A stretch of 50,798 nucleotides of DNA from Chromera velia (taxonomy: Eukaryota). The position numbers and the translations under genes are program-made. This document shows positions 29,618-45,336 of the stretch, in pieces. The stretch spans positions 1 to 50,798 of the forward strand of contig JAHBMJ010000303.1 of assembly GCA_018398765.1 (NCBI GenBank), in the 5' to 3' direction. Each line of letters opens with the position of its first letter. Position 1 is the stretch's first letter. The notes beneath the pieces are model-generated. The model was given only the letters and a program-made list of their open reading frames with translations. It did no database searches and was not told the DNA's origin.

Positions 29618-30386
29618 TGTGAAAGAAAACGATGGTCCCGTTCCTGGTCGGATTCGCGGAGGGTGAATTCCGATCCCGGCCTTTCCATTCGTCCCTTCGC
29701 CCCGAGCCAGAGAAAGGAGCGACGCACACGTGGCGGCCCATCCACACGGGGTGGCGGGGCGCCTGCGACAGAGGTGTGCATGTTGTGAGTTCCATGGTAT
29801 GGCCTGCATGCACTTTGGCGTTAGAAATATACCCGAGGCACTCACCGTGGTGGTGTATGCTCTAGGCCTTCATATGGGATTCAATTAGGCCGATGGTGCG
29901 GTTATGCCATCGGAGGCTTCAGAATTAATTCTGGTCCCGAATTAATTTCCATAAATTTCCAGACAGTCAGACAGACGTGCACGGCGGTTACCGTCCGTCT
30001 AAATGAGAGACGTGACCTAGGAATTAACAGAGCTTCATGTGTAGGATCTGTACTTTGCCTTATGTGTCTCTATGGTTCTCTTGTGCTCTGAGTAGCTCTG
30101 AGTAATGCACGAGGCCACCAGCAGGAGCGTACTGTAGACTGTAGGGGTTTATGGATTTTCTGTCTGGTGAAGAGACTGATCAGATATTTATTTCTGATTA
30201 TCTGTATCGGTCTAGACGAGTACGTTAGGATGACGTATTTGCTGTGGTCCTCTAATAGGAGAGGGCCAGGAATTTGGGAGTATAGCAGTTTGAGGAATCC
30301 TCTGGATAGGCTAAAGGATCGACACGGGAGGGCCCATAGGATCCCACTAGAGGAGTCTCAAGAGAGGTGAGACTTTACTTTTCACT
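29618..30386 (+). repeat. 5' LTR (769 bp; 767 bp if it ends at CA 30384)
   Basis: TGTGAAAGAAAAC...TACTTTTCA(CT). Direct repeat of 44588-45336 plus two extra 10-nt insertions. Confidence 0.95.
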
Positions 30387-30403
30387 GGCGCCGTCGCTGA
30401 GGG
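30386..30403 (+). promoter_or_regulatory. Primer-binding site (TGGCGCCGTCGCTGAGGG); not iMet-type, resembles tRNA-Asp-type
   Basis: TGG 1 nt after the LTR CA is complementary to tRNA CCA. Similar to the Athila-type TGGCGCCGTTGCCGGGG PBS apart from transitions. tRNA identity is inferred. Confidence 0.75.
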
Positions 30404-30473
30404 AGTCTCCCCTTGTTATTTCGACAACATTCCCCTTCTTGTATTCCTGATTCCCTACTGCAGGTGACTTACC

Positions 30474-33400
30474 ATAGGTCCGAAGAAGGATGCTCCCCAC
30501 GGGTGCATCGCGATCAAGGGTATAAAGGCGAAGACCATGGGCGTCTTCGGCCTCATGGACGATACGGACATCATCAAGTAGGTACGGCAATATGCAGATG
30601 CTGTTGCCATTCTCGGTAACTCAGACGAGTGGTGCAGCGGGCTCACCCTCACCAACAGAAACAAGGTGGGGGTCAACGTTAAGCACTACGTCGTAAAGAC
30701 CGAGGTAGAAGTGCTGAAGAAGGTGGTGGAACGGGTGCCCCACCTCAGCTCGAAAGTCTCTGAGCAGCTCCGAATTTTCCACAGACACGTTGTGGACTGC
30801 GTTTCTCCGCCCGACGCGGAGTGGATGAAGAGATATCTGCAGCGAACCGACATCCTAAGAATGGGCAAAGCGAGAATCATGGAAATCAGGGAGCTTCTCT
30901 CACGCCGAGAGAAGGAGAGAATCTCTGGTCCCCAGTTGAAGTCCCTGAACGAGCAGATCCTCTGCCTGCAGACTCTGAAGGAACCCTCTTCCCTCTCTCT
31001 GTCTCGCCCTGTTATGTTTTCTTCAGGTGGGGAGCTCCATGGGGGAGCTCCAACAGAGACGAAAGTGAAGATGGAGGAGGAGACGGGAACGATACCAGAC
31101 ACCTCCCGTCAGATATCCGTCTCCGTGTCCAGTGAACAGCGTCTGGCCTCTGATGATTGGGACCGCCGTAGCAGTAGCAGTAGCAGTTCCAGTGGGGGGG
31201 TACAGGTGGTTGGTGTGCGACCTGACACCACCCTGGTGGAGAAGAATTAAAAGGAAGCAGTACAAGGATCTCGTGGCCCAGATATCGGGTCTGGACGCCG
31301 AACGGGGTGCTGATAAGCTCCGAATTCTGGAGATCCAGAAGGAGGAGAATGAAGTGCTGAGTGGTATGCCCAAGAGGGACAACTTCTCTGACTAAGCCTA
31401 AGTTAGTAAACTAGTTCCCTGAGGGGTCCAAAGGGAAGGAGGAGTACGCTAGAGTACGCATCAGAGCTGGCATCCTGGGTCGAGAAAAAAGAGGTCTTCA
31501 ACGCTGGAAAGGCTGACAGGGATACGCTGGTAGCGACCCTGCAAGGTTATATTGACCAGTTGGCGTCTGATGTGTTTGCTCTGTCAGTGAACGAGCAGGC
31601 CAACAAACTCCGAAAGGAGATAAACGTGCTCTCTCCTCCTCCTAAGGCCAAGGGCATCCCTGGAGGTGCTGCTGAAGGCCGCCTGCCTTCAGTATTCTAG
31701 ATGACCCCCCTTATGGGTGGGGGGGTGTATCCTGCAGTGTCTCCCCCTGAACCTGCGATGGTGTCTGTGGGTGGAGGGGTACGTACTAGTGATGTCAGGG
31801 CTCCAAGGGCTCCTGACCTAGCTCCTGACATCTTCTTTTTCCTGGGAGTTAGGAAGTCGAGTAGAACTCGGGGGAGGCCGAAGTGTGACTCTGAGGATCC
31901 CCTCATCGCCTACACCCTGGAGGAGATCTTGACATCGGTCCCGAGGACCTTTGTGGAGATGTGCGATAAGGTCGTGGCTATAATCTTTGCGCACTTTTTC
32001 AAGACGATCCAGTACTCGACCTCAACTCTCGTTCTGAAGTACGAGAAGATTGCTTGTAAGCCCTATCGGTTCGGTACTTACACAGAGCTGCTGGCATATC
32101 ACAAGCGTCAGACTCTCCTGAACCACCTGGTTAAGGAGAACATCGTCCATGAGCTTGGCATGAAGTACAGCCTTAGGCTCCTGATGGCGCACCTGCCAAA
32201 CGACCTCATAATGAGGTGGCAGGAGAGGCAGAACCCGGTGGACCTCACCAGTGAAGTGGAGATCACTAAAGAGATCCACACTATCGCTTCCCAGGTGGAG
32301 ACCTTCAACAAGTCTCTCGGGGATGCCTGGGACCAGGGCTTGGTTAAGGGAGCTCTCATCGAGGACTTGAAGAGAGAGTGGGAACAGAAGGCGGCAACCT
32401 TCGGTATGAAGGACTCGGGGGATGCCTCGCGAGGGGGCATCATTCCGAAGGTTCCTTTCGTGGCGTTCGCAGGGCCTGGAGGAATCCCGCAGAGGAAGTC
32501 CCCTTCCAAGGCAAAGGGAGAGAAACCTTCAGGAAGAAAGACTCCTGACTCTGGCGGGAAGGGCAGGGGCAACTCTGATCGCGGGAGGCAAGGCAGTGCT
32601 GGCCGGGGTTTCGGTAAGGGGGATGGCGGGGGGAGCTCCAATCGGAGGCGCTCTCCTAGGTTCAATTCCTCTGCTCCCTCCAGTCGATACAATGATAAGG
32701 GGGTGGAAGGAAAGGACCGTCCTCCCACTCAGGCCGTTGTTAACCCCAGGGGCCCCAACAGGAACCCCGTTCTCGATCGATATGGTGTCCAACACCAGGA
32801 CGGAACCGGATCGGATGCGTTCATCAGGACGATGGCGGGACCTGTAGAAACTCCCATCAAGCCCGGTCAGTGGGATGGAGAGTTTAGGTCTTTGTGGGAT
32901 AAAGCGTATTGGGATCCTGCCAGCAGGAAGAGCCTTCCCCACGGGTACCGCGATGGGCAGTGCCTGAGATGCAACCGTTCGGACGGACATGCAGAGTGGG
33001 GGGGCCATGGGGCCTGTCCTTGGATTCGGAAGAAGGACGGCTGCCCAGCGTGTAAAACGATGGGCCATGCTCCCAACAACTGCCCTGACGAGAACGCGAA
33101 GAAGCGGTGGATGATGAAGCAGATGGACAAGACCAGGCAGGACAGGGGCGGCTCCAGGGGCCGTCCCAAAGGTCCTCCGGGAGGAGGAGGCCATGGAGGC
33201 GGCTCCGGAGACCGTCGAGGGTCTCCCTATCCTGGTCGTGGGGGCAGCTCAGGGGGGAGAGGAGGCGGTAGGGGTCGCGGCCATGGTGGGCGCACCCTTT
33301 CTCCTGGCAGGTTCAACAACGAGAACTTCGAGAAGAAGAACTTAGACTCCGGACAGGCGCAGCAGGGGGGTAGTGTCCCTCCTGTGTCCTCGCAGACTGT

Positions 33401-44400: not shown

Positions 44401-44576
44401 CCATTAGGTCGCCAGTTGCGGTGGCTGGCAGGCAATGGTTGAGCATCAGAAAAAGAGGAAAAGGAAAATTGGGGAGCCGGGTGATTAAAGAAAGGTCTTT
44501 TCTTATGCTTCCCGATCCCCCTCGTCAGAGAGGGGTGTGTTATGCTGCGTGCTCCATAGTCTTTCCTCGAGGGCTT

Positions 44577-44585
44577 GGGAGGAGG
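44577..44585 (+). promoter_or_regulatory. Polypurine tract
   Basis: GGGAGGAGG, preceded by GAGGG, 2 nt upstream of the 3' LTR. Confidence 0.75.
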
Positions 44586-44587
44586 TG

Positions 44588-45336
44588 TGTAAAAGAAAAC
44601 GATGGTCCCATTCCTGGTCGGATTCGCGGAGGGTGAATTCCGGTCCCGGCCTTTCCATTCGTCCCTTCGCCCCAAGCCAGAGAAAGGAGTGACGCATGCG
44701 CGGTGGCCCGTCCACACGGGGTAGCGGGGCGCCTGCGACAGAGGTGTGCATGTTGTGAGTTCCATGGTATGGCCTGCATGCACTTTGGTGTTAGAAATAC
44801 ACCCGAGGCACTCACCGTGGTGGTGTATGCTCCGGGCTTTCATATGGGATTCAATTAGGCCGATGGTGCGGTTATGCCATCGGAGGCTTCAGAATTAATT
44901 CTGGTCCCAAATTAATTTCCAGACAGTCAGACAGACGTGCACGGCGGTTACCGTCCGTCTGAATGAGAGACGTGACTTAGGGATTGACAGAGCTTCATGT
45001 GTTGGATCTGTACTTTGCCCTATATGTCCCTGTGGTTCTCTTGTGCTCTGAGTAATGCACAAGGCCACCAGCAGGAGCGTACTGTAGATTGTGGGGGTTC
45101 ATAGATTTTCTGTCTGGTGAAGAGACTGATCATATATTTATTTCTGATTATCTGTATCGGTCTAGACGAGTACATTAGGGTGACGTATTTGCTGTGGTCC
45201 TCTAATAGGAGAGGGCCAGGAATTCGGGAGTATAGCAGTTTGAGGAGTTCTCTAGATAGGCTAGAGGATCGATACGGGAGGGCCTATAGAATTCTACTGG
45301 AGGAATCTCAAAAGAGGTGAGACTCTACTTTTCATT
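44588..45336 (+). repeat. 3' LTR (749 bp)
   Basis: TGTAAAAGAAAAC...TACTTTTCA(TT); aligns end to end with the 5' LTR. Confidence 0.95.

What the first reader, a model, noticed from the sequence alone, without database searches (positions are those of the whole stretch)
29618..45336. RIP-like / all-context C->T hypermutation of repeats in a non-fungal (alveolate-like) genome, shown by the LTR pair
Seen: hand alignment of the two LTRs gives 49 substitutions over ~749 bp, of which 47 are transitions and 2 are transversions. Polarised as C->T or G->A, they fall in about 15 CpG, 15 CpA, 10 CpT and 7 CpC contexts, on both strands and in both copies. Known: LTRs are identical at insertion, ordinary CpG decay is CpG-restricted, and fungal RIP (RID/Dim-2 dependent) gives this kind of transition-only load in repeats. 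Inference: a repeat-targeted genome-defence system (RIP-like mutation or dense non-CG methylation plus deamination) operates here. I am not aware of one being described in chromerids or apicomplexan relatives.
Basis: partly seen in the sequence, partly recalled or inferred. Interest (0 to 1): 0.9.

Follow-up and report, generated by a model that had tools for sequence, protein, structure and literature searches.

The report
RIP-like transposon mutation in Chromera alga
In what is most likely the alga Chromera velia, a free-living relative of malaria parasites, dozens of copies of one retrotransposon have decayed mainly by C-to-T changes, at CpA as often as at CpG, a pattern known from fungal genome defence and here likely caused by a transposon-directed cytosine-modifying enzyme that has not been identified.

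Summary
Observation confirmed exactly: 47 transitions and 2 transversions over 749 columns; 15 CpG, 15 CpA, 10 CpT, 7 CpC. The element is a dead Ty1/copia retrotransposon whose named relatives are all Chromera velia proteins. The bias is family-wide and polarised. In 58 gene models of other copies, C>T/G>A hit 4.5% of opportunities, reverse transitions 0.34%, each transversion 0.11%. Rates by context: CpG 8.4, CpA 8.1, CpT 3.3, CpC 1.9%, on both strands, with no marked 5' preference. Host-intron microsatellites and TpA content do not show it, but no direct single-copy polymorphism control was obtained. Changes are not strand-clustered and loads are near-uniform, which fits gradual decay of marked DNA better than episodic fungal RIP. 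Published tables give C. velia 4-5 cytosine-methyltransferase genes, filed as DNMT2, and one paper gives its sister Vitrella a DNMT4 (RID-related). Best reading: a transposon-directed, CpA/CpG-preferring cytosine methyltransferase plus deamination (0.55). I found no report of this in chromerids. The scan noted similar loads in Mucoromycota fungi, none in Chromera.

The parts
29613..29617 (.). left target-site duplication copy (CAGTA)
   Evidence: differs from the right copy by one G/A transition at a CpG
29618..30386 (+). 5' LTR; carries 21 of the 47 transitions and two extra 10-nt stretches
30386..30403 (+). primer-binding-site-like stretch beginning TGG (tRNA not identified)
   Evidence: sequence; label from recalled LTR anatomy
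30402..41300 (+). copia-type gag-pol frame with 26 in-frame stops; the true start is not fixed (other copies lack 4 nt at 31245)
   Evidence: 11 of the 26 stops are covered by other copies and all 11 lie at W, Q or R codons
36996..38057 (+). family-specific insert domain upstream of the reverse transcriptase, no known family
   Evidence: 13 of 15 hits are 73-91% identical, 2 are weak; no Pfam hit; no atlas hit for a 130-residue part
40269..40619 (+). reverse transcriptase core (RVT_2)
   Evidence: Pfam PF07727 E 2.5e-5, below the curated cut-off; relatives named Ty1/copia RT of C. velia
41400..44587 (+). long 3' non-coding region, shared by other copies
   Evidence: covered by contigs of runs X1 and X2
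44577..44585 (+). polypurine tract
   Evidence: other copies have G at 44583
44588..45336 (+). 3' LTR; carries 26 of the 47 transitions
45337..45341 (.). right target-site duplication copy (CGGTA)
11601..29300 (.). host genic and intronic DNA used as control: GC 0.51, TpA o/e 0.39, microsatellite interruptions not C>T-biased
46000..50798 (.). host gene used as control: TpA o/e 0.47

Best explanation
Copies of this copia retrotransposon have gained C-to-T changes on both strands since they inserted, most often at CpA and CpG, likely because a transposon-directed cytosine C5-methyltransferase marks them and the marked cytosines then deaminate gradually without efficient repair. Shown: the spectrum, its polarity, strand symmetry, independence between copies, and the nonsense codons it produced. 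Indirectly supported: host DNA is spared. Inferred and untested: that methylation exists, that a methyltransferase is the agent, whether deamination is spontaneous or enzyme-driven, and which gene is responsible. Candidates are an unrecognised DNMT4/RID-like gene, as reported in the sister alga Vitrella, or one of the four paralogues filed as DNMT2. The result works like the mitotic, Dim2-dependent form of RIP: a slow, irreversible knock-out of transposon reading frames.
For: Rates per opportunity in 58 gene models over 588 codons: C>T/G>A 565 of 12660 (4.46%), T>C/A>G 49 of 14232 (0.34%), transversions 59 of 52183 (0.11%); CpA 8.05, CpG 8.39, CpT 3.27, CpC 1.94%. With the context fixed by the amino acid: CpA 32/333, CpG 42/614, CpT 46/869, CpC 23/1295. 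Replicated in a second region with 21 models: 94/2266, 12/1838, 13/7866. DNA level: in run X1, C>T at 1603 of 3822 C positions although the stretch has only 810 CpG, and G>A at 1815 of 4954. The rate follows the 3' neighbour, not the 5' one (AC 5.7, CC 5.4, TC 4.7, GC 4.0%), as expected of a methyltransferase rather than of UV or APOBEC-type damage (recalled). No strand heterogeneity among copies (p 0.47) and copies share at most 4 derived sites. Controls: TG/CA arrays in host introns show 4 C>T among 18 interruptions where the element's spectrum predicts 90% (p 1e-11); host TpA o/e 0.39-0.47 against 0.60-0.92 in the element. C. velia has 5 DNA_methylase-domain genes and 0 MBD genes (PMC5890265 supplement); Vitrella CEM15752 is filed as DNMT4 (PMC10538959).
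Against: No methylation data for C. velia were seen. PMC12344493 lists only 4 DNMT2 and no DNMT1, DIM2, DNMT3, 4, 5 or 6 for C. velia and states that species with only DNMT2/DNMT6 have undetectable 5mC. No direct single-copy polymorphism control. The microsatellite and satellite controls are shaped by slippage and are small (34, 26 and about 22 events per comparison). In tetranucleotide arrays C>T (9 of 167 sites) is somewhat above T>C (7 of 228). Only one transposon family was measured; a search with a second, recombinase-like relic found nothing. At contig level the Ts/Tv of variable places is only 3.5 (4581 to 1311 in X1). Only 10 of 33 two-step amino-acid changes in other copies fit two C>T/G>A hits. 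C>T load does not correlate with the other changes across copies (rho 0.16, p 0.24, few events).
Confidence: 0.55

Rival explanations
1. A genome-wide mutation bias, or a recently arisen mutator such as weak uracil repair, affects all DNA and is merely visible in repeats because they have copies to compare.
For: No single-copy polymorphism control exists here. Tetranucleotide arrays show a mild C>T excess (9/167 against 7/228). GC-to-AT bias is common in eukaryotes (recalled).
Against: Under the measured rates neutral DNA would fall to 8% GC, and host-like DNA would go from TpA o/e 0.37 to 0.57 within one mean copy age (simulation); host DNA is 51-54% GC with TpA o/e 0.39-0.47. Dinucleotide arrays in host introns: C>T 7, T>C 11, transversions 16. 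Higher-order copies of the TGAC satellite differ by 11/10, 11/11 and 9/12 transitions/transversions (not independent). Plain hydrolytic deamination has no known 4-fold CpR-over-CpC preference (recalled).
Confidence: 0.15
2. Classical RIP: a RID/DNMT4-type enzyme detects duplicated DNA by homology once per sexual cycle and mutates it in bursts.
For: CpA and CpG targets together are described for Aspergillus and Tuber (PMC4352252). Vitrella has a DNMT4-clade protein. Many mild rounds would look gradual.
Against: No strand clustering (adjacent same-strand 205 of 373 against 193-197 in shuffles, p 0.09 and 0.18). Load is unimodal, 0-8.4%, dispersion only 1.38 (p 0.03); the set is limited to copies with annotated ORFs, which trims the heavy tail. 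Composite RIP index negative in all 1-kb windows of the element. No DNMT4 listed for C. velia.
Confidence: 0.12
3. No methylation: a chromatin-targeted deaminase, or exclusion of uracil repair from heterochromatin, produces the changes in transposon DNA.
For: Would reconcile the pattern with a DNMT2-only repertoire. Both strands and gradual build-up fit equally.
Against: Known polynucleotide deaminases read the 5' neighbour (recalled), which matters little here. A paper search for Chromera with APOBEC gave 1 unrelated listing. The proteome could not be searched.
Confidence: 0.14
4. Errors of the element's own reverse transcriptase, editing of its cDNA, two LTR subfamilies joined by recombination, or assembly error.
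For: One checked LTR site has reverse polarity. cDNA editing can make twin LTRs differ (recalled).
Against: C>T and G>A are about equal on the sense strand (4.0 and 4.8%), whereas cDNA editing is one-sided (recalled). The host-derived target-site duplication carries the same kind of change. Copies are star-like. Two independent DNA runs give the same spectrum.
Confidence: 0.04

Closest known systems
Dim2-dependent mitotic RIP-like mutation of Zymoseptoria tritici (PMC8016269, passages)
   Same: C>T transitions in transposon DNA at non-CpG sites, building up gradually and knocking out elements
   Different: There over 98% of C>T are at CpA and CpG is spared; here CpG equals CpA and CpT/CpC take part. 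Dim2 is fungal and not listed for C. velia.
Repeat-induced point mutation (RIP) of ascomycetes, RID/DNMT4-dependent (PMC4352252, passages)
   Same: C:G to T:A load in repeats with CpA among the top targets; CpA plus CpG signature as in Aspergillus and Tuber; Ti/Tv far above 2, which only 11% of Arabidopsis TEs reach in that study
   Different: Non-fungal host; no strand clustering; mild near-uniform load; negative composite RIP index; premeiotic timing and homology trigger not shown; no RID on record in C. velia.
All-context (CX) repeat methylation of Naegleria gruberi (PMC12344493, section 7)
   Same: A protist in which cytosines of repeats are marked in all four dinucleotide contexts
   Different: Shown as methylation with DNMT1-type enzymes, equal across contexts; a mutational outcome is not described in the section read. 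Here only the mutational scar is seen and it prefers CpR.
CpG decay of methylated transposons (DNMT1/DNMT5-type)
   Same: C>T at CpG, both strands, gradual
   Different: In the LTR pair 32 of 47 changes are outside CpG, and CpA is hit as often as CpG.
Diatom and Vitrella DNMT4 (PMC9998398 passages; PMC10538959)
   Same: RID-related methyltransferases in SAR algae, including the sister chromerid
   Different: Function stated to be unknown; no linked mutation pattern in the passages read; a C. velia orthologue was not checked.

Membership tests
RIP (fungal) | C:G to T:A transitions dominate in repeated DNA | tested here: met
RIP (fungal) | CpA among the preferred targets | tested here: met
   CpA 8.05% equals CpG 8.39%, above CpT and CpC; fixed contexts
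RIP (fungal) | single-copy DNA spared | tested here: inconclusive
   indirect controls favour sparing; no polymorphism control
RIP (fungal) | episodic, heavy, strand-coordinated bursts (feature recalled) | tested here: not met
   strand heterogeneity p 0.47, adjacent-strand p 0.09-0.18; dispersion 1.38
RIP (fungal) | positive composite RIP index | tested here: not met
   -0.09 to -0.73 over 30001-45000; the background is TpA-poor and the load about 5%
RIP (fungal) | triggered by sequence duplication as such | tested here: inconclusive
   satellite units of 150-190 bp show no bias but are short; host duplicates not examined
RIP (fungal) | premeiotic timing | not testable with these tools
   needs crosses or mutation-accumulation lines
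RIP (fungal) | requires RID/DNMT4 | not testable with these tools
   proteome not searchable; 0 DNMT4 listed for C. velia, one for Vitrella
Dim2-type mitotic mutation | gradual C>T in methylated repeats, almost only at CpA | tested here: not met
   gradual pattern fits, but CpG is hit as often as CpA
Dim2-type mitotic mutation | 5mC present on the repeats | not testable with these tools
   none of the 11 runs listed had a library description on record
CpG decay | excess confined to CpG | tested here: not met
APOBEC-type cDNA editing | one-strand G>A with a 5'-neighbour motif (feature recalled) | tested here: not met
   both strands 4.0 and 4.8%; 5' contexts 4.0-5.7%
Ty1/copia LTR retrotransposon | twin LTRs, target-site duplication, PBS/PPT, RVT_2 at the end of pol | tested here: met
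   protease, integrase and RNase H seen by eye only, no Pfam hit

The most novel reading that the evidence does not exclude
Chromerids run a RIP-like genome defence outside fungi: a DNMT4/RID-related enzyme (as in Vitrella and diatoms) or a repurposed DNMT2 paralogue marks transposon cytosines at CpA and CpG and converts them to thymine, sparing host genes. This would be the first function for a non-fungal DNMT4, or the first clear case of a DNMT2 acting on DNA with mutagenic effect, in the free-living sister group of apicomplexans.
Probability: 0.35. Interest if true: 0.88.

Novelty: new variant of a known kind. Interest (0 to 1): 0.72.

Why it matters
RIP is described as fungal-specific (PMC4352252), and a recent survey expects no DNA methylation in species with only DNMT2/DNMT6, which is how it files C. 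velia. A strong CpA/CpG C-to-T scar on C. velia transposons contradicts one of these expectations, or reveals another mutator. It gives a concrete test for two open questions: what non-fungal DNMT4 enzymes do (function stated unknown), and whether DNMT2 can act on DNA. C. velia is culturable, so one methylome would decide much. It also bears on how the apicomplexan lineage dealt with transposons, and it means LTR-based dating and pseudogene calls in this genome are inflated by a directed process.

Tried and rejected
No whole genome is held for this window, so other LTR pairs and the proteome could not be examined. A direct comparison of single-copy DNA between runs was not obtained. No relative of the RT in metagenome contigs (117 pattern matches, none confirmed). 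A search with the recombinase-like relic at 2351-2917 found no homologue among 15 candidates, so a second family was not measured. The insert domain 36996-38057 was examined as a possible methyltransferase or counter-defence module: no Pfam hit, no atlas hit, only family-like relatives; left unexplained. No RNA holder was listed for the element. My recollection that the diatom paper PMC2806351 reports RIP-like changes was wrong: 0 occurrences of RIP or RID. Standard RIP indices do not flag the element. Not-in-print claim rests on: Chromera + repeat-induced point, 0 papers; Chromera velia + transposable elements + cytosine methylation, 0; Chromera + 5mC, 2 unrelated; Chromera + APOBEC, 1 unrelated; RIP-like + non-fungal + repeat-induced point, 4 fungal papers; chromerid + retrotransposon + transition + LTR, 3 listings; a broad alveolate search whose 20 listed papers (of 911) hold no mention of repeat-induced point; and the genome paper PMC4501334, 0 occurrences of RIP. 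The library lacks most subscription papers. Of PMC9998398's supplements 12 of 23 files were searched, without a Chromera row. Earlier scan notes on this genome: none.
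Full report
Observation. The two LTRs lie at 29618-30386 and 44588-45336. They align over 749 ungapped columns with 47 transitions and 2 transversions, plus two 10-nt indels. Taking C/G as ancestral gives 15 of 88 CpG, 15 of 98 CpA, 10 of 99 CpT and 7 of 117 CpC sites; 21 changes fall in the 5' LTR and 26 in the 3' LTR, 21 as C>T and 26 as G>A on the + strand. The chance of 2 or fewer transversions in 49 is 7.5e-7 at Ts:Tv 2:1 and 0.0015 at 4:1. 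A 5-bp target-site duplication flanks the element and its copies differ by one G/A transition (CAGTA, CGGTA), so both LTRs belong to one insertion.

What it is. One long + frame from about 30402 to 41300 holds 26 in-frame stops and a weak RVT_2 match near its end (E 2.5e-5). All 13 longer relatives and 33 of 34 similar-length relatives of the RT are named Chromera velia CCMP2878 proteins; the 34th is the window's own. I therefore take the host to be C. velia (inference). Summed contig depth in run X1 is about 1800-4600 over the interior against 25-45 for single contigs, which suggests some tens of copies to about a hundred; the tool warns that this is no copy number.

Polarity. At 609 codons covered by 8 or more other copies, the window differs from a 70% majority at 49: 35 by C>T/G>A, 1 by a reverse transition, 6 by transversions, 2 ambiguous, and 5 by two steps, each compatible with two C>T/G>A hits. 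Eleven of the 26 stops are covered by other copies and all 11 sit at W, Q or R codons. Of the 40 best-supported DNA differences shown (6640 more not shown), 34 have T/A in the window and C/G in other copies, 3 are reversed and 3 are transversions; 25 of the 34 are at CpT or CpC. Six of the 40 are LTR-pair sites: 5 agree with the assumed polarity, 1 does not.

Family-wide spectrum. I counted amino-acid changes reachable by exactly one base change from codons where the window carries the majority residue. Of 62 gene models, 58 were kept and 4 dropped for identity under 88% or short cover; some models come from the same genomic copy. Over 588 codons: C>T/G>A 565 of 12660 opportunities (4.46%), T>C/A>G 49 of 14232 (0.34%), transversions 59 of 52183 (0.11%). 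By 3' neighbour: CpG 8.39% (site bootstrap 7.2-9.7), CpA 8.05 (6.4-9.8), CpT 3.27 (2.4-4.3), CpC 1.94 (1.5-2.4); strands 4.0 and 4.8%. With contexts fixed by the amino acid, so that a decayed CpG cannot pose as CpA: CpA 32/333, CpG 42/614, CpT 46/869, CpC 23/1295 (42 models). The 5' neighbour matters little (4.0-5.7%). A second region (427 codons, 21 models) repeats it: 4.15, 0.65 and 0.17%; CpA 7.8, CpG 5.5, CpT 3.6, CpC 2.7. Limits: only non-synonymous changes in copies with annotated ORFs are seen, and only 10 of 33 two-step changes fit two C>T/G>A hits. At DNA level, contigs of run X1 show C>T at 1603 of 3822 C positions (the stretch has 810 CpG) and G>A at 1815 of 4954; T>C 581, A>G 582, eight transversion classes 138-186 each; run X2 is alike. 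The place-level Ts/Tv of 3.5 is much lower than in the LTR pair. Saturation, diverged subfamilies admitted at 80% likeness, and the window's own changes counted in reverse probably explain this (inference).

Tempo. Copies share at most 4 derived sites per pair, so hits are independent. Strand balance does not vary between copies (chi2 33.9, df 34), and neighbouring hits are on the same strand 205 of 373 times against 193-197 in shuffles. Load runs from 0 to 8.4% with a mode near 4-5% and dispersion 1.38 (p 0.03). This fits a burst of insertions followed by steady exposure better than rare heavy bursts.

Is host DNA spared? Only indirect tests were possible. In dinucleotide arrays of host introns the 34 interruptions are 7 C>T, 11 T>C and 16 transversions; in TG/CA arrays, the hottest context in the element, 4 of 18 are C>T (2 of 13 after merging neighbours) where 90% is predicted (p 1e-11 and 4e-10). 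Tetranucleotide arrays give 9 C>T, 7 T>C, 10 transversions, a mild per-site C>T excess. Higher-order copies of a TGAC satellite differ about equally by transitions and transversions. Slippage affects all of these. Host DNA is 51-54% GC with TpA o/e 0.39-0.47; the LTRs have 0.89-0.92, gag-pol 0.60, a second relic 0.91. Simulated under the measured rates, host-like DNA reaches TpA o/e 0.57 after one mean copy age and 8% GC at equilibrium. A recent genome-wide mutator is disfavoured, not excluded.

Mechanism. Both strands, post-insertion origin and dependence on the 3' neighbour rule against RT error, cDNA editing, UV and CpG-only decay. The order CpG, CpA > CpT > CpC is what relaxed C5-methyltransferases give (recalled). 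I commit to a transposon-directed methyltransferase followed by poorly repaired deamination (0.55). The enzyme is open. A supplement row of PMC5890265 gives C. velia 5 DNA_methylase genes and 0 MBD genes, Vitrella 0 and 0. A supplement row of PMC12344493 gives C. velia 4 DNMT2 and nothing else, Vitrella nothing, and its text says DNMT2/DNMT6-only species lack detectable 5mC; this is the main evidence against my reading. PMC10538959, which does not include C. velia, lists a DNMT2 and a DNMT4 (CEM15752) for Vitrella and places the latter with diatom DNMT4 near fungal RID, while noting that this clade splits from canonical DNMT4 in one of two trees. The surveys thus disagree on Vitrella, so the C. 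velia list may be incomplete. I could not examine these proteins.

Comparison and novelty. It works like the Dim2-dependent mitotic mutation of Zymoseptoria tritici and shares the CpA-plus-CpG signature of some ascomycetes, but fails tested features of both (strand clustering, RIP index, CpA-only target), so it is not filed as RIP. The searches listed under Tried and rejected found no report for chromerids. Papers seen: PMC4501334 (passages), PMC9998398 (passages and 12 of 23 supplements), PMC5890265 (supplement rows and passages), PMC12344493 (supplement rows, passages, section 7), PMC10538959 (supplement hits, parts of two supplements, passages), PMC2806351 (passages), PMC4352252 (passages), PMC8016269 (passages). 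Verdict: real, family-wide, probably transposon-directed; a new variant of a known kind; interest 0.72.

Noticed in passing
window 1200-3800: Degraded relic whose translation resembles a tyrosine recombinase by eye (no Pfam hit; no homologue), with in-frame stops and TpA o/e 0.91, well above host DNA.
   Followed up: partly
window 7800-8460: Broken gene with a weak zf-MYND match (E 0.017), stops and a frameshift; a candidate host-like duplicate for testing whether non-transposon repeats are mutated too.
   Followed up: no
window 1-1054 (- strand): RING-finger gene (weak Pfam hits) followed by cysteine-rich repeats in another frame; TpA o/e 0.32, like unmutated host DNA.
   Followed up: no
window 4300-5700: TGAC satellite with higher-order units of 150-220 bp; no C>T bias between units.
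   Followed up: partly
window 29310-29617, 45342-45960, 3850-4100: AT-rich, TpA-rich patches (GC 0.28-0.42, TpA o/e 0.84-1.09) beside transposons; possibly older, further decayed repeats, into which the copia element inserted.
   Followed up: no
window 29618-30386 and 44588-45336: The LTRs end in CACT and CATT, two bases beyond the usual CA, as judged from the target-site duplication.
   Followed up: no
window 36996-38057: Family-specific domain of about 350 residues with a C-terminal Cys/His cluster inside pol; the element is 15.7 kb long.
   Followed up: partly
window 11601-29300 and 46000-50798: Host DNA is strongly TpA-depleted (o/e 0.39-0.47), so TpA content alone may map mutated repeats across this genome.
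   Followed up: partly
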